Position numbers and translations under genes: made by a program. Below the pieces are notes generated by a model, which saw only the letters and a list, made by a program, of their open reading frames with translations, made no database searches and was not told the DNA's origin. From assembly GCA_964358525.1 (NCBI GenBank), contig CAYHPU010000003.1, positions 1 through 36,591 of the forward strand: a stretch of 36,591 nt of DNA. Reading direction: 5' to 3'. Of this stretch, positions 3,247-36,591 are shown one piece after another. This DNA comes from an uncultured Gammaproteobacteria bacterium (GTDB taxonomy: Bacteria; Patescibacteriota; Microgenomatia; UBA1406). Position 1 is the stretch's first letter. Each line of letters opens with the position of its first letter.

Positions 3247-3425
3247 AAAAATTCGAAGCACGAAACTCGAATTTCGAAACAAATTAATACAAATTCGAAA
3301 TAATAAATAAACCCCACCTCACCTCCCCTATCCGCCAGCTGGCGGAGGGGAGGATTAAGGAGGGGTAAATTTATGATTTAATGCTTAGGATTTGTTTCGG
3401 ATTTCGATATTCGGATTTCGGATTT
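3247..3425. repeat. Composite intergenic element: heptad-repeat inverted arms enclosing a REP that holds TCCGCCAGCTGGCGGA
   Basis: Left arm AAATTCGAAGCACGAAACTCGAATTTCGAAACAAAT; right arm ATTTGTTTCGGATTTCGATATTCGGATTTCGGATTT; inner palindrome 3331-3346. Confidence 0.8.
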
Positions 3426-4677: not shown

Positions 4678-4803
4678 AACCCCTCCCAACCTCCCCTCCG
4701 CCAGCTGGCGGATAGGGGAGCCTGCCCGCAACGCTTCGCGTAGCGAGGCGGGCGGGGCGCAGGTGGGGTTTGTTTCGAAATTCGGATTTCGTACTTCGGA
4801 TTT
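4678..4803. repeat. Composite REP cluster with nested palindromes
   Basis: TCCGCCAGCTGGCGGA 4697-4712; CCCGCAACGCTTCGCGTAGCGAGGCGGG ~4725-4752; heptad arm 4768-4803. Confidence 0.8.
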
Positions 4804-11092: not shown

Positions 11093-11174
11093 AACCCCTC
11101 CCCATTTGGGGTTTGTGATTTATGATTTGTTTCGTCCGCCAACTGGCGGATTTCGACATTCGGATTTCGGATTT
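11093..11174. repeat. Heptad-repeat arm with nested TCCGCCAACTGGCGGA
   Basis: Matches 3389-3425 apart from a 14-nt insert and a substitution. Confidence 0.75.
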
Positions 11175-26901: not shown

Positions 26902-26996
26902 GTATCTGCCCGTCTTACACTGGTTTGCAACCCGTTAGGTTGCCAAAGCAGTTTAGAGGGGTTTATACCCGAGCAAATTAATTTGCGAGTGGTATA
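26902..26996. repeat. ~93-nt double-hairpin element, copy 1
   Basis: Reverse-complement homolog at 31355-31446. Confidence 0.85.
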
Positions 26997-29343: not shown

Positions 29344-30081
29344 TTAGTCTATTTTCGTGTTTGTTTTTGGATCAGTTAGATATTGACCTATTCTAGGAGT
29401 TTTTCTACTTTCCGCAACCTTGGATAATGTATTAATAAGATTAGAAAGATAAGAAATAACTTCCTCGTGATCAGTATTTGCAGGTGTAAAACTCCACTTA
29501 TTAGCACAAAAGCTCCAACATCCCACATCTACGCTACATAAATTATTTATTATTGGCTCTTTATTCCAATTTGAATCTATTCCTTTATATAGATCAAAAA
29601 TGTTTCGAATAGAACTGAACGCGAACAACTCTCTAGTAAAATCAAATAATTTATGATTTACAGGGTTATCATTTTCATCATATTCACCTGCTTCGTATTT
29701 TATTTTTTCTTTAATTAATTTATATTTGTTATAAGTATCTGTTAGTTCACCATTATCTAATCTGCTTTTTACCTCTATACACGATAAGACGCTTTCGGAT
29801 GGATATACCCCAAAATTTTCTGAGAATAATATAGGGGGGATTAGTTCTTTCGAATAAATAACAACATCAATCTCACTGGAAATATTGTCTTTAGCATCGG
29901 TTATTTTCCCCGAGCCAGTACTATATTTGGATGCTAACATTGGCTTAACCAATTGGTCTACGAGGATTTCTTTATATTTACCAATTAAATAGCCGTGCTC
30001 TAATTTAGGCGATATTAGTTTGGCATCTTTTATGGCTTTATCAACCTTGTTTATTAACCCTTGCCTATAAAAAGTATTCAT
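29344..30081 (-). CDS. DUF6602-like PD-(D/E)XK nuclease-fold protein
   Basis: H..LIG..KE, GSGKITD, SSEIDVVIY, PSESVLSCIEVKS. Confidence 0.75.
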   Translation of the reverse strand: MNTFYRQGLINKVDKAIKDAKLISPKLEHGYLIGKYKEILVDQLVKPMLASKYSTGSGKITDAKDNISSEIDVVIYSKELIPPILFSENFGVYPSESVLSCIEVKSRLDNGELTDTYNKYKLIKEKIKYEAGEYDENDNPVNHKLFDFTRELFAFSSIRNIFDLYKGIDSNWNKEPIINNLCSVDVGCWSFCANKWSFTPANTDHEEVISYLSNLINTLSKVAESRKTPRIGQYLTDPKTNTKID

Positions 30082-30089
30082 ATATGAAC

Positions 30090-30893
30090 TTATTTGAATC
30101 TATTGGAATCGATAATATTTAATATTTTTGATAAATGAAGTGTACCTTCCCTAACTAACGTTCTCTCTTCCTCTTTTGAGTATGTTCCGCTCTTAGAGCC
30201 AGATAGCTTATCCCTAATTAAATCATGCTCTGTCTGTAAATTCTGAAGTTCGATGGCGGTAACATGAGAGAAAACAACTTTAGCTCCTAAATCTAAAATC
30301 CAGTTTTTAAGTTTTGATTGTGGTGATTTCTTGTGAATTGCTTGAAGAGTCTTGTGAATAGCTTCGCGTAAGGGTATTAGCGATGAAGTTGATATACCTA
30401 CTCCCTGAATGTGAACTTCCCATGCTGATTCTAGAAGTTTAATAGCATCCTGTCCTTCTTTAACAGAGTCGAGTCCTAATCTTTTAATTCCCACCATAAC
30501 TTGCTCTTTTGTCTTACCCCTATCGATAACTTGATCAAACTGGGAGTAGAAATATGTATATGGGGGATTTGATCGATACGTGTAATTGGTTGATATTCCA
30601 CTAAGCGCTACCATTGCGTTTGCCGTGCCAAAAGCAAGACCAGAAGCGAGTGATGTCATGCTTCCCAAATGTTGATCAACCTTATCTAAATTGCTTAATA
30701 CTGATTGGAAATTATTAATGTAATTACCAGGATGGTCTACTAACGGACTTTGATTAAAATTATCTATACTCATTTCAGCAAATTCTTTAAGAAAGCTACC
30801 AGTTTTTTGTATACCACCAGCTTTGGCAGATACATCCTCGCTTTTAGTTTTTATCTTTTCAAGTATATCCTTAAGGATTGTTTTATCTGACAT
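30090..30893 (-). CDS. Hypothetical helical protein
   Basis: 267-aa ORF ending 8 nt before the DUF6602-like gene; AT-rich. Confidence 0.75.
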   Translation of the reverse strand: MSDKTILKDILEKIKTKSEDVSAKAGGIQKTGSFLKEFAEMSIDNFNQSPLVDHPGNYINNFQSVLSNLDKVDQHLGSMTSLASGLAFGTANAMVALSGISTNYTYRSNPPYTYFYSQFDQVIDRGKTKEQVMVGIKRLGLDSVKEGQDAIKLLESAWEVHIQGVGISTSSLIPLREAIHKTLQAIHKKSPQSKLKNWILDLGAKVVFSHVTAIELQNLQTEHDLIRDKLSGSKSGTYSKEEERTLVREGTLHLSKILNIIDSNRFK

Positions 30894-30944
30894 TTTTATC
30901 CACGAACTAACACTATTATTTTTGGGTCGATTAAGGAAACTCTG

Positions 30945-31017
30945 CTCCCCAGAGAGGACTCGAACCTCTAACCTTGTCGTTAACAGCGACCTGCTCTACC
31001 GATTGAGCTACAGGGGA
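30945..31017 (-). tRNA. tRNA-Asn (GTT)
   Basis: TCCCCTG TAGCTCAATCGGTAGAGC AGGTCG CTGTTAA CGAC AAGGTT AGAGG TTCGAGT CCTCT CTGGGGA G; cloverleaf, CCA not encoded. Confidence 0.95.
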
Positions 31018-31247
31018 ATTGACTTCAAAAATTCTTTTCCACATCCACTTTTTAAATATTTCTCCTTAATCCTTGCTTCTGTTCGGTTTTTAGCCTGCTC
31101 TATATAAATTGATTTCCAGGGTCGATAATTTTTGGTTGAAAAAACATATCCAGTATTATGTTCAATAATTCTTCTTTCGAAATGTGAACTCATTCCAACA
31201 TATATTCTTCCATCTTTTTGACTTTTGATTGCATAAACACAATACAT
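31008..31247 (-). CDS. Small GIY-YIG nuclease (UPF0213/SLX1-like), 79 aa
   Basis: MYCVYAIKS...RIYVG, RIIEHN, TKNYRPW, ARIKEKYLKSG; last 10 nt overlap the tRNA 5' end. Confidence 0.9.
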   Translation of the reverse strand: MYCVYAIKSQKDGRIYVGMSSHFERRIIEHNTGYVFSTKNYRPWKSIYIEQAKNRTEARIKEKYLKSGCGKEFLKSIPL

Positions 31248-31263
31248 AGTCTTTATATTATAT

Positions 31264-31321
31264 GCGACCTGCTCCCTGCCTGCCGGCAGGCAGGTACCGT
31301 CTGCCACACAGCTACAGGGGA
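31264..31321 (-). pseudogene. Disrupted 5' half of tRNA-Asn
   Basis: TCCCCTGTAGCT...CGGTA[CCTGCCTGCCGGCAGGCAGG]GAGCAGGTCGC matches the tRNA 5' half up to the anticodon loop. Confidence 0.85.
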
Positions 31322-31354
31322 AATATAAAATTTAAAAGAGCACCTCAGATTCTC

Positions 31355-31446
31355 ATACCACTCGCAAATGAATTTGCTCGGGTATACGTCTCTCTAAACT
31401 GCTTTGACAATCTCCCAGATTGCAAACCAGTGTAAGAGCGACGTAC
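31355..31446. repeat. ~93-nt double-hairpin element, copy 2 (inverted relative to copy 1)
   Basis: ATACCACTCGCAAATGAATTTGCTCGGGTATA...CTCTAAACTGCTTTG...TTGCAAACCAGTGTAAGA. Confidence 0.85.
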
Positions 31447-31583
31447 ACACTATGATATCAAACCAATGTCTACTTTTAAATGAACAATTGCAAGCGCACT
31501 ATCATATCCTATAATATTTCTACAGTTTTTTTGGTATAATACCAATCTGATAGGCCATTTCTAAAGAAAGGAGGACTTTCCGT

Positions 31584-31718
31584 ATGAAATGGATAAGAAG
31601 GATAAAAAAGCGCGTTTTTACTTTTACCGCGCTTGTTGCAGCTGCAGTAATCTTCTTCCTCATCCTCTACGTCGCCCTGTGGGCGGTCGTAGCCTGTGGG
31701 GCAGTCGGCAGGTGCTAA
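31584..31718 (+). CDS. 44-aa single-TM peptide (not in ORF track)
   Basis: MKWIRRIKKRVFTFTALVAAAVIFFLILYVALWAVVACGAVGRC; TGGTATAAT ~31531-39, SD AAAGGAGG 31567-74, terminator follows. Confidence 0.7.
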   Translation: MKWIRRIKKRVFTFTALVAAAVIFFLILYVALWAVVACGAVGRC

Positions 31719-31721
31719 ACC

Positions 31722-31751
31722 AGCCCCTCTCTATGGAGAGAGGGGCTTTTT
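31722..31751 (+). terminator. Intrinsic terminator
   Basis: AGCCCCTCTCT-atgg-AGAGAGGGGCT followed by a T-tract. Confidence 0.85.
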
Positions 31752-31829
31752 CTTTCTTCGCATAGTCTGAGTAAGCTTTTTTTGATCTCTTCACTGTGAG
31801 GTTATTTATTCAGTTGTTATAATTCATAC

Positions 31830-32579
31830 ATGAGCCTTATCAATACCACCAGTTTTGAATTGGCCATATATTCTAAAGGCAATCCCAATTCTCTAAAACT
31901 TGCATTAGTCTTGCCAGGTAGATTGGATACAAAAGATTACGCCCATATGAAAAGCCACGTCGATTATTTAGCAAGTAAAGGTTTTTTTGCGGTATCTTTT
32001 GACCCTCCTGGCACATGGGAAAGTCCCGGCGATATTTCGTTGTACACCATGTCTAATTATCTCAAGGCTATTAATGAAGTAATTGAGTATTATGGCAATA
32101 AACCAACTTTTGTCATGGGCCACAGTAGGGGAGCAACTATGGCTATGCTCGTTGGTACAAAAAATCCATATGTCACTGCATTTGCTGCCATTTTTTCCTC
32201 TTTCTCTAAAGGTGGATATACCACAAAAGAAAAAGATAAAGAATGGAAAAGGCTCGGCTATTTGTTAGAAACGAGAGATCTACCGCCAGGGGGTGGTCCA
32301 AAAGTAAAAGAAATCAAACTTCCGTATGCTTTTTTTGAAGACCAGTCCCAACATAATATGACGGAAGATTTAAAACAATCACCTAAACCAAAACTTTTTG
32401 TGTACGGTAATACCGATGTACTAGCACCACCAAAAGTGGTGAAGGAAATGTACGAAATTTCTAGTAACCCAAAAGAGTTGCACTCGCTTGATTCAGGTCA
32501 TGATTATCGGTTAAAGCCTCAATCAATAAATGAAGCAAACAAGATTTTAGGTAGGTTTTTGAGTAAACACAATCTATGA
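31830..32579 (+). CDS. Alpha/beta hydrolase
   Basis: FDPPGTWES, GHSRGA, GNTD, GHDY. Confidence 0.85.
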   Translation: MSLINTTSFELAIYSKGNPNSLKLALVLPGRLDTKDYAHMKSHVDYLASKGFFAVSFDPPGTWESPGDISLYTMSNYLKAINEVIEYYGNKPTFVMGHSRGATMAMLVGTKNPYVTAFAAIFSSFSKGGYTTKEKDKEWKRLGYLLETRDLPPGGGPKVKEIKLPYAFFEDQSQHNMTEDLKQSPKPKLFVYGNTDVLAPPKVVKEMYEISSNPKELHSLDSGHDYRLKPQSINEANKILGRFLSKHNL

Positions 32580-36537: not shown

Positions 36538-36591
36538 ACCACTCCCCACATCCCCTCCGCCAGCTGGCGGATAGGGGAGGATTAAGGTGGG
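36538..36591. repeat. REP with nested TCCGCCAGCTGGCGGA (36556-36571), truncated by window end
   Basis: Same family as 3311-3367 and 4678-4720. Confidence 0.85.

What the first reader, a model, noticed from the sequence alone, without database searches (positions are those of the whole stretch)
30945..31321. Minimal GIY-YIG element bounded by a duplicated tRNA-Asn 5' half
Seen: on the minus strand the order is [tRNA 5' half, 31321-31264, ending exactly at the anticodon loop (..GGTCGC)] - [79-aa GIY-YIG gene with its own TATAAT] - [intact tRNA-Asn]. The two tRNA 5' ends are direct repeats 304 bp apart. The nuclease's last codons and TAG stop (ATT CCC CTG TAG) are read from the tRNA's first nucleotides. 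The orphan half has decayed and picked up a 20-bp palindrome. No integrase or transposase is present. Known: integrative elements commonly duplicate part of the tRNA they target, and GIY-YIG domains act as homing endonucleases. Inference: this is a ~300-bp selfish unit that inserts at the tRNA anticodon loop and rebuilds the tRNA with the 5' half it carries. RNase P maturation of the tRNA would also cut off the nuclease mRNA's stop codon, a built-in way to limit expression.
Basis: partly seen in the sequence, partly recalled or inferred. Interest (0 to 1): 0.85.

Follow-up and report, generated by a model that had tools for sequence, protein, structure and literature searches.

The report
tRNA-embedded mini GIY-YIG selfish cassette
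A tiny nuclease gene sits fused to the front of a tRNA-Asn gene, behind a dead half-copy of that tRNA split by a 20-base palindrome, and the same three-part layout recurs at many tRNA genes in several bacterial phyla, which points to an apparently undescribed kind of selfish DNA.

Summary
On the minus strand lie a tRNA-Asn 5' fragment (nt 1-12 and 22-32) split by a perfect 20-bp palindrome, a TATAAT box, a 79-aa GIY-YIG ORF whose TAG stop is tRNA nt 8-10, and an intact tRNA-Asn.

It is not a one-off. The same genome has a second case at tRNA-His. Three relatives carry a GIY-YIG gene in front of tRNA-Asn and a fourth carries only the remnant.

In 55 loci fetched by protein similarity alone (record titles name Patescibacteria, Bacteroidota, Ignavibacteria and others), 43 have a same-strand tRNA within 150 nt. 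The other 12 show tRNA pieces by eye. In 36 of 55 loci the same palindrome (CCTGCCTGCCGGCAGGCAGG, at most 3 mismatches) lies beside the gene, usually in the D- or T-loop of a dead tRNA copy.

The protein is a minimal Slx1/UPF0213-like nuclease with no DNA-binding domain. Its distribution is patchy (1 of 61 species sampled in one cultured genus). Six of 46 ORFs carry stops or frameshifts.

Best reading: a homing-type selfish cassette that spreads by break-induced recombination, with tRNA-derived repeats as homology arms. The palindrome is a hallmark, not random decay. The mechanism is inferred. My searches found no description of it.

The parts
30944..31017 (-). Intact tRNA-Asn(GTT). It has no promoter-like box of its own between it and the ORF.
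   Evidence: ARAGORN; Rfam RF00005 at 64 bits.
31008..31247 (-). 79-aa minimal GIY-YIG (Slx1/UPF0213-like) ORF including the TAG stop. The last 10 nt are tRNA nt 1-10.
   Evidence: AF2 model with pLDDT 96.1. Foldseek top hits are 1zg2 (UPF0213), At-HIGLE and Slx1. The catalytic residues Y5, Y16, G18, R26, H30 and E62 are invariant in 43 sequences.
31257..31262 (-). TATAAT (-10-like) hexamer 9 nt before the ATG. It is the likely promoter of the GIY-YIG gene and the tRNA together.
   Evidence: The equivalent (G)TATAAT stands at the same place in L012 and L016 and in L063 and L088. No -35 box was found. Function is not shown.
31264..31274 (-). Remnant segment identical to tRNA nt 22-32 (D-stem 3' strand plus anticodon-stem 5' strand).
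31275..31294 (.). PAL, the perfect 20-bp palindrome CCTGCCTGCCGGCAGGCAGG, inserted at the D-loop/D-stem junction of the remnant. It is the only copy in this genome.
   Evidence: The same 20-mer lies beside the homologous genes in 26 (exact) or 36 (at most 3 mismatches) of 55 loci.
31295..31309 (-). Altered D-loop of the remnant. It ends in GGTA; the bases before that are unlike the intact tRNA.
   Evidence: Six mismatches in 16 nt against the intact copy.
31310..31321 (-). Remnant segment identical to tRNA nt 1-12 (acceptor 5' strand and start of the D-stem).

Best explanation
The locus holds a free-standing, homing-type selfish cassette of about 250-300 bp. It consists of a -10 box and a 79-aa Slx1-like GIY-YIG nuclease gene that often has no stop codon of its own, fused to the 5' end of a tRNA gene.

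Shown:
- The cassette always lies between a truncated or disrupted copy and an intact copy of the same tRNA.
- It occurs at many tRNA species and in several phyla.
- Its distribution is patchy, and some copies are degenerating.

Inferred:
- The nuclease, or another source of breaks, breaks a naive tRNA gene in the anticodon stem-loop.
- The break is repaired from an element-bearing donor. The remnant (tRNA nt 1 to about 32) serves as the left homology arm and the intact tRNA as the right arm.
- The resident 5' half is thereby left behind as the orphan, and the tRNA stays functional.
- The tRNA then depends on the cassette's promoter, which makes the cassette hard to lose.
- The 20-bp palindrome PAL is the cognate DNA motif of this nuclease clade. 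It is inserted at loop/stem junctions of the dead copy. There it may destroy a target site or break up the direct repeat that could otherwise delete the cassette.
For: Same genome:
- 6 of 9 distinct GIY-YIG genes lie 93 nt or less from a same-strand tRNA.
- A second case with a remnant exists at tRNA-His, across the C163/C122 contig joint.

Relatives at tRNA-Asn (20 loci examined):
- 3 have the gene upstream (G022, G021, G004), 3 have a GIY-YIG downstream, 1 has the remnant only (G023), and 13 have neither.
- 5 of the 20 carry a group I intron at nt 35/36.

The 55 loci fetched by protein patterns alone:
- 43 have a tRNA within 150 nt, and all 43 are on the same strand.
- The other 12 show tRNA pieces, intron-bearing tRNAs or tRNAs cut by a contig end, judged by eye.
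- 39 locus-tRNA pairs have partial tRNA copies of at least 10 nt, against 6 hits with reversed tRNAs as a control.
- Remnant ends cluster at nt 30-45, and PAL insertions at nt 20-23 or in the T-loop.

Link to introns:
- In L052 and L067 the intact tRNA-Asn behind the gene carries a group I intron (56 and 66.8 bits). The same holds in G004. This is the pattern expected if the anticodon loop is the target.

Mobility:
- Only 1 of 61 sampled species of one cultured genus has the tRNA-Leu-linked gene at E<=1e-20.
- 6 of 46 ORFs carry stops or frameshifts.
- One clade of 20 rows (SH-aLRT 93) holds all Leu-linked rows and includes Patescibacteria, Bacteroidota, Ignavibacteria and Omnitrophota.
- The remnant and the intact copy are different alleles in L088 and L012.

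Fold:
- The model is closest to UPF0213, At-HIGLE and Slx1, which are structure-selective nucleases.
Against: - No nuclease activity, target site or transfer event has been observed.
- The 79-aa protein has no DNA-binding domain, so site-specific recognition of a tRNA gene is hard to explain.
- The intact tRNA-Asn in the window has no intron and no PAL, so under this model it should stay cleavable.
- Classical homing creates no target duplication. The origin of the first duplication at each new tRNA species needs a rare illegitimate event.
- PAL also occurs at many non-tRNA sites. It also occurs in 10 of 39 PAL-positive Patescibacteria genomes that have no hit at E<=1e-8 with this query.
- Four GIY-YIG genes downstream of tRNAs in this genome show no detectable tRNA remnant.
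- The tree is poorly resolved: 81 columns, and 32 of 51 inner branches under 80.
Confidence: 0.55

Rival explanations
1. A palindrome-centred system. The GIY-YIG protein is a structure-selective nuclease whose real business is to mobilise PAL-type palindromes into hairpin loops, comparable to REP elements and their RAYT transposase. tRNA arms are hairpins, so redundant tRNA copies collect PAL. The gene's place among tRNA fragments would then be a by-product of the breaks and repairs it causes there, not of its own homing.
For: - PAL is a dispersed repeat. It has 6-22 copies in five relatives. It is present in 39 of 151 sampled Patescibacteria genomes, with no hits for the reversed control.
- 14 of 15 fetched PAL loci have no tRNA.
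- PAL sits at loop/stem junctions of D-, T- and anticodon arms, in different tRNAs and on either side of the gene. It must therefore have been inserted many times independently.
- 6 of the 7 other genomes whose best hit is E<=1e-17 hold PAL, against 38 of 150 overall. PAL lies 27-43 nt from the gene in G116, G182, G138 and G091.
- PAL-positive genomes have a hit in 29 of 39 cases, against 42 of 112 PAL-negative ones (hand-tallied; Fisher p=8e-5). Kin are not independent, so this overstates.
- Divergent proteins come with different palindromes (L016, L033 and L095).
- The fold is closest to Holliday-junction and branched-DNA nucleases.
Against: - No mechanism is known by which a GIY-YIG nuclease would insert DNA.
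- 10 of 39 PAL-positive genomes lack a hit with this query.
- G000 has the gene but only one PAL.
- This reading does not by itself explain why the ORF is fused precisely to tRNA nt 1 in so many loci.
Confidence: 0.25
2. A vertically inherited housekeeping gene co-transcribed with tRNAs, for example a nuclease acting in tRNA or RNA processing or repair. On this reading the tRNA fragments are unrelated local duplications.
For: - The ORF and the tRNA share strand and probably a promoter.
- Dunin-Horkawicz et al. 2006 (PMC1564403; passages read) regarded prokaryotic Slx1-like proteins as largely vertical. They noted a fusion to a TrmH-like tRNA methyltransferase.
- The catalytic residues are conserved.
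Against: - The distribution is patchy: 13 of 20 relatives' tRNA-Asn loci have neither the gene nor a remnant, and 1 of 61 species in a cultured genus has the gene.
- Several paralogs per genome sit at different tRNAs.
- Some copies are pseudogenes.
- Tandem arrays of dead tRNA copies flank the gene.
- The same tRNA type is kept across phyla.
Confidence: 0.07
3. A remnant of an integrase-type integrative element or prophage that once duplicated part of the tRNA, with an unrelated GIY-YIG gene left behind.
For: Integrative elements commonly target tRNA genes and duplicate part of them (established knowledge).
Against: - There is no integrase or recombinase in 14 ORFs around the site.
- The duplicated part is the 5' half, and the whole unit is about 300 bp.
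- The same compact layout recurs in dozens of genomes.
- Only 2 weak relatives were found in viral contigs.
Confidence: 0.03

Closest known systems
Free-standing GIY-YIG homing endonuclease genes, such as phage T4 SegB in the tRNA gene cluster (PMC2330249, abstract seen), and 'collaborative homing' of a free-standing nuclease with an ORF-less group I intron (recalled from the phage literature, not read here)
   Same: A GIY-YIG nuclease gene lies next to a conserved tRNA gene. The distribution is sporadic and copies degenerate. In three loci (L052, L067, G004) it co-occurs with a group I intron at the presumed target.
   Different: SegB-type enzymes are about 200 aa or more and have DNA-binding domains. 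This protein is the bare 79-aa catalytic domain of the Slx1 lineage. Homing endonuclease genes do not leave a duplicated target half, and none is known to come with a conserved palindrome.
Slx1, At-HIGLE and bacterial UPF0213 minimal GIY-YIG proteins (PDB 1zg2, 1ywl, 7wme, 6seh)
   Same: These are the best fold and sequence matches. The prokaryotic members are standalone minimal domains (PMC1564403).
   Different: Slx1 and HIGLE are cellular repair nucleases for branched DNA. No link to tRNA genes, palindromes or mobility is described in the passages and abstract I saw.
tRNA-targeting integrative elements (tyrosine integrase, attL/attR)
   Same: The target is a tRNA gene. Part of the tRNA is duplicated and the tRNA is kept intact.
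   Different: There is no integrase. The 5' part rather than the usual 3' part is duplicated, and the unit is about 300 bp instead of kilobases.
REP elements with RAYT, and the IS200/IS605 family (hairpin-dependent single-strand transposition; recalled)
   Same: A short dispersed palindrome is associated with a small nuclease gene, and insertions occur at hairpins.
   Different: The enzyme here is GIY-YIG, not an HUH or Y1 transposase. The gene is embedded in tRNA fragments.
Group I introns in tRNA anticodon loops
   Same: The insertion zone is the same. Relatives' tRNA-Asn carries an intron between nt 35 and 36, and one intron region has an HNH-like ORF (L034).
   Different: No ribozyme is present in the window. 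The tRNA is kept functional by duplication, not by splicing.

Membership tests
GIY-YIG nuclease superfamily (Pfam PF01541) | Profile match above the curated cut-off, with the GIY / YIG / Arg / His / Glu catalytic residues | tested here: met
   52 bits against a cut-off of 22.6. Y5, Y16, G18, R26, H30 and E62 are invariant in 43 sequences.
GIY-YIG nuclease superfamily (Pfam PF01541) | GIY-YIG alpha/beta fold | tested here: met
   AF2 pLDDT 96.1. Foldseek probability 1.0 to 1zg2, 7wme and the Slx1 chains. I-TevI and UvrC domains rank lower.
Slx1 / UPF0213 minimal lineage | Standalone minimal domain that is closer to Slx1 and UPF0213 than to UvrC and I-TevI | tested here: met
   phmmer against PDB finds 1ywl at E=0.002. 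Foldseek ranks 1-12 are UPF0213, HIGLE and Slx1. The definition is taken from PMC1564403.
Homing endonuclease gene (free-standing) | Sporadic distribution beside or inside a conserved host gene | tested here: met
Homing endonuclease gene (free-standing) | Site-specific cleavage of the allele that lacks the gene, and nuclease-dependent conversion | not testable with these tools
   This needs biochemistry and genetics.
Homing endonuclease gene (free-standing) | A DNA-binding module that reads a long target | tested here: not met
   All 79 aa are the catalytic domain. The match to NCBIfam group I intron endonuclease is 18.5 bits against a cut-off of 56.
Integrase-type tRNA integrative element | Tyrosine or serine recombinase gene | tested here: not met
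   None was found in 14 ORFs between 23.9 and 36.5 kb.
Intron-encoded endonuclease (group I intron) | Ribozyme core around the ORF | tested here: not met
   There is no RF00028 match in window 30000-32500 at E<=1. Introns are present in relatives only.
Transposon / IS | Transposase and terminal inverted repeats | tested here: not met
   There is no transposase. No conserved end repeats were seen when 41 cassette ends were lined up (inspection only).
REP/RAYT-like system | HUH/Y1 transposase with flanking REP palindromes | tested here: not met
   The enzyme is GIY-YIG. Only the palindrome association resembles this system.

The most novel reading that the evidence does not exclude
PAL and the mini GIY-YIG nuclease form a two-part mobile system of a new kind. 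A structure-selective Slx1-like nuclease cuts DNA hairpins or cruciforms at loop/stem junctions, and this drives insertion of its cognate 20-bp palindrome. tRNA genes are the richest conserved source of such hairpins. They are therefore repeatedly hit, duplicated and 'killed', and the nuclease gene rides fused to the surviving copy. This would be the first DNA mobility mechanism based on a GIY-YIG enzyme and a palindrome. It would also give a function to the very widespread bacterial UPF0213/Slx1-like proteins.
Probability: 0.25. Interest if true: 0.92.

Novelty: new variant of a known kind. Interest (0 to 1): 0.8.

Why it matters
Minimal Slx1-like GIY-YIG proteins (UPF0213) are common in bacteria and have no known function. 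This work gives them a sharp and testable genomic context. They are fused to tRNA genes, flanked by dead tRNA copies, and marked by a 20-bp palindrome that is conserved across phyla.

If the cassette homes, it shows a route by which a selfish gene can invade an essential RNA gene without an intron, namely by duplicating part of its target. It would also capture the tRNA's transcription.

If the nuclease mobilises the palindrome, that would be a new transposition chemistry. It could also explain the origin of the GC-rich palindromes that riddle small Patescibacteria genomes.

There is a practical side. tRNA scanners miss or miscall the disrupted copies, and assemblies break at these sites.

Cultured carriers exist according to their record titles (Flavobacterium cheonanense JCM 17069, Algoriphagus limi CAU 1643, Gelidibacter algens ACAM 536), so experiments are feasible.

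Tried and rejected
- Assembly artefact: rejected, because the layout recurs in many independent assemblies and the contig pieces fit. No single public contig bridges the whole unit, and parts of 31210-31320 have little cover.
- Expression: no RNA holder was listed, so nothing can be said.
- Homodimer (which would suit a palindromic site): the complex-prediction job gave 'no answer' with a score of 0.00. This is not evidence either way.
- Phage vehicle: only 2 weak relatives (30-47% identity) were found in viral contigs with this pattern search.
- Syntenic empty site: the neighbouring hydrolase gene has relatives in G003, G012, G036 and G016. In G003, the one I fetched and scanned, no tRNA-Asn lies nearby. 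No allele-for-allele comparison was therefore possible.
- Terminal inverted repeats of the cassette: none were seen by eye.
- Pre-PAL versus post-PAL divergence of remnants: the count was too noisy to use (52 of 320 against 34 of 240 mismatches, dominated by atypical loci). Only the L012 and L088 allele differences are cited.
- The TATAAT box is not called a promoter by the consensus scan, because there is no -35.
- Folding of the remnant as single-stranded DNA is not exceptional (z = -1.6).
- Literature: nothing was found on this architecture in searches. Subscription journals and supplementary files were not searched, so prior description cannot be excluded.
Full report
**1. What is in the window.**
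On the minus strand ARAGORN and Rfam find one tRNA, tRNA-Asn(GTT), at 30944-31017. An ORF at 31008-31247 encodes 79 aa and matches Pfam GIY-YIG (E=9e-14). Its last codons and its TAG stop are tRNA nt 1-10.

Upstream, tRNA nt 1-12 recur at 31321-31310 and nt 22-32 at 31274-31264. They are colinear with the tRNA, and the 5' ends are 304 bp apart. Between them lie an altered D-loop and a perfect 20-bp palindrome at 31275-31294, CCTGCCTGCCGGCAGGCAGG, called PAL below. It has no match in 100 shuffles of the window. A TATAAT hexamer follows the remnant and stands 9 nt before the ATG. It has no -35 partner.

No integrase or transposase family was found in 14 ORFs scanned between 23.9 and 36.5 kb.

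**2. The same genome repeats the pattern.**
The window is contig C3 of a 1.21-Mb, 169-contig genome with 39.5% G+C and 38 tRNAs. A six-frame search finds 10 matches, which are 9 distinct genes. Six of the nine lie 93 nt or less from a same-strand tRNA: Asn, His, Asp, Ser, Trp and Gly.

Contigs C163 and C122 overlap by 16 nt, and the joint runs through one of these genes. In that locus the order is:
- tRNA-His nt 1-11;
- a GC-rich hairpin insert;
- tRNA nt 12-18;
- a TATAAT-type box;
- the GIY-YIG ORF, whose stop lies in the tRNA-His D-loop;
- the intact tRNA-His.

At the four loci where the tRNA precedes the gene I found no tRNA remnant.

**3. Relatives at tRNA-Asn.**
I examined the tRNA-Asn locus of 20 relatives from the same order.
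- Three have a GIY-YIG gene directly upstream.
  - G022 carries the same PAL at the same D-loop site.
  - G021 and G004 carry a different 16-nt palindrome.
- G023 has only the remnant with its palindrome, 12 nt before the tRNA.
- Three have a GIY-YIG of another clade just downstream.
- Thirteen have neither.
- Five carry a group I intron (RF00028, 76-105 bits) between nt 35 and 36 of the anticodon. G004 combines the intron with the upstream gene.

The remnant follows each genome's own tRNA variant. For example, TCCCTGG is present in both copies of G023. The post-PAL piece of G022's remnant, however, resembles another allele.

**4. Across phyla.**
I fetched 55 loci from one-genome-per-species contigs by peptide patterns of the window's protein only. 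By their record titles they come from Patescibacteria, Bacteroidota (including isolates), Ignavibacteria, Omnitrophota and MAGs labelled otherwise.
- 43 of 55 have an ARAGORN tRNA within 150 nt, and all 43 are on the gene's strand.
- The 12 others show tRNA remnants, tRNAs cut by a contig end, or intron-bearing tRNAs on inspection. In L052 and L067 the tRNA-Asn behind the gene has a group I intron.
- Partial tRNA copies of at least 10 nt were found for 39 locus-tRNA pairs, against 6 hits with reversed tRNAs.

The usual layout is: host tRNA nt 1 to about 21, PAL (one or two copies), tRNA nt 22 to about 30-45, a short spacer, the ORF, and the intact tRNA. It occurs at Asn, Arg (three anticodons), Lys, Phe, Ala, Gly, Leu and Ile.

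A mirror form also exists, with the intact tRNA, then the ORF, then a 3' remnant that has PAL in its T-loop. So do full-length tRNA copies split by PAL and tandem arrays of dead copies.

PAL lies within 200 nt upstream or 250 nt downstream of the gene in 26 (exact) or 36 (at most 3 mismatches) of 55 loci. Only 10 hits occur in the 92.6 kb of distal flanks. In 20-21 of 41 loci the ORF runs into a tRNA copy and often uses the tRNA's conserved TAG at nt 8-10 as its stop.

**5. PAL is also a dispersed repeat.**
- It is single-copy in this genome. It has 6-22 copies in five relatives.
- It occurs in 39 of 151 sampled genomes of the phylum, with no hits for the reversed control.
- 14 of 15 fetched PAL loci contain no tRNA.
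- Of the 7 other genomes whose best protein hit is E<=1e-17, 6 hold PAL. In several, PAL lies 27-43 nt from the gene.
- PAL-positive genomes have a hit at E<=1e-8 in 29 of 39 cases, against 42 of 112 PAL-negative ones (my tally; Fisher p=8e-5). Related genomes are not independent, so this overstates the association.
- Divergent proteins go with other palindromes (L016, L033 and L095).

A 20-mer kept next to one gene family in different phyla, yet at different places in different tRNAs, is best read as the cognate DNA motif of that family. It must have been inserted repeatedly.

**6. The protein.**
Y5, Y16, G18, R26, H30 and E62 are invariant in 43 sequences. The AF2 model is confident (pLDDT 96.1). 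Its best PDB matches are UPF0213 BH0048, At-HIGLE and Slx1, and these rank ahead of I-TevI and UvrC. Sequence search also finds 1ywl (UPF0213) at E=0.002.

Slx1 and HIGLE cut branched DNA and Holliday junctions (entry titles; abstract of PMC9071465). Prokaryotic Slx1-like proteins are described as minimal standalone domains of presumed vertical descent (PMC1564403, passages read). There is no DNA-binding domain.

**7. Signs of mobility.**
- The distribution among relatives is patchy (paragraph 3).
- Only 1 of 61 sampled species of the genus of a cultured carrier has the tRNA-Leu-linked gene at E<=1e-20, although search for related loci had found it in several members.
- 6 of 46 ORFs carry stops or a frameshift. 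I did not check the genetic codes of those hosts.
- In five relatives, 12 of the 16 hits with E<=1e-7 sit 155 nt or less from a same-strand tRNA, each at a different tRNA. Of the 10 weaker hits, 2 do.
- In a quick tree (81 columns, mostly unresolved), all Leu-linked rows fall in one clade (SH-aLRT 93) that includes four phylum labels. The tRNA type changes 10 times and the phylum label 15 times.
- In L088 the remnant and the intact tRNA differ in the acceptor stem, and the intact copy is self-consistent. Some tRNA sequence has therefore moved with the cassette.

**8. Mechanism.**
The best-supported reading is a homing-type selfish cassette. A break in the anticodon stem-loop of a plain tRNA gene is repaired from a donor that carries remnant-PAL-cassette-tRNA. 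The remnant and the intact tRNA act as homology arms. This reproduces the half-tRNA duplication and keeps the tRNA alive.

The co-occurrence with a group I intron at nt 35/36 fits target protection. The tRNA's dependence on the cassette's promoter would hinder loss of the cassette.

The weak points are these:
- the absence of a DNA-binding domain;
- the unprotected intact tRNA in the window;
- the need for rare illegitimate events to reach new tRNA species.

The main rival puts PAL at the centre. On that reading a structure-selective nuclease cuts hairpin junctions and spreads its palindrome, and tRNA fragments are collateral. The two readings are not exclusive. A housekeeping role and an integrase remnant are unlikely (see the rival explanations).

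**9. Limits.**
- The 55 loci were picked by similarity to this one protein, so they describe its clade and not all small GIY-YIG genes.
- Many loci are MAG contigs, and their taxon labels are as deposited.
- Remnants in 12 loci were judged by eye.
- No RNA data, activity data or population data were available.
- Literature searches found no description of this layout. They cover open-access papers and preprints only, and supplements were closed.

Noticed in passing
window 31355-31437 (-); also window 26913-26995 (+): An 83-nt repeat with about 9-10 copies in this genome, and copies in relatives G031, G022 and G027. It has two hairpins whose stems covary between copies, inside conserved flanks. 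No Rfam family matched at E<=1 for the copy at 31355-31437; the other copy was not searched. It looks like an undescribed structured RNA or a miniature mobile element. One copy lies just upstream of the tRNA remnant.
   Followed up: partly
window 3331-3346, 4697-4712, 11135-11150, 36556-36571, and about 50 more sites genome-wide: The 16-bp GC-rich palindrome TCCGCCAGCTGGCGGA is dispersed at about 55 copies in the 1.2-Mb genome. It usually sits at the apex of longer imperfect palindromes, giving nested hairpins. A near-identical palindrome fills the D-loop of the tRNA-Asn remnant in G021, G023 and G004.
   Followed up: partly
G000 contigs C2, C21, C34, C56, C74, C84, C94, C95, C118, C162: 10 of the 38 tRNAs lie 1-106 bp upstream of a contig end. 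Four of them (Gln, Pro, Lys, Thr) are followed by the same 54-nt sequence at 98% identity or more. Something repeated or variable just downstream of tRNAs breaks the assembly.
   Followed up: partly
L031-L035 (G006, G002, G004, G008, G016): The tRNA-Asn genes of five relatives carry a group I intron between anticodon nt 35 and 36 (RF00028, 76-105 bits). ARAGORN calls no tRNA in these loci. In G008 the region before the ribozyme core encodes an HNH-like motif.
   Followed up: partly
G000 C15 (tRNA-Asp), C42 (tRNA-Ser), C44 (tRNA-Glu), C18 (tRNA-Arg CCG): An AT-rich two-hairpin motif of about 75 nt directly follows these tRNAs. The outer stem of the first hairpin pairs with the last bases of each tRNA and covaries with them. 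At Asp and Ser a GIY-YIG gene of another clade follows the motif; at Glu and Arg none does.
   Followed up: no
window 29344-30893 (-): Directly downstream of tRNA-Asn lie a 267-aa ORF with no Pfam match and a DUF6602 protein (E=2e-19). No DNA match to this part of the query was listed among the 40 relatives searched. It may be accessory cargo at the tRNA.
   Followed up: no
G191 contig C26, 58327-59037 (genome of L085): Two tandem copies of the tRNA-Leu-linked GIY-YIG gene lie about 220 nt apart. They match the L085 query at 100% and 89% identity. L092 likewise shows a tandem remnant-gene-remnant-gene array.
   Followed up: no
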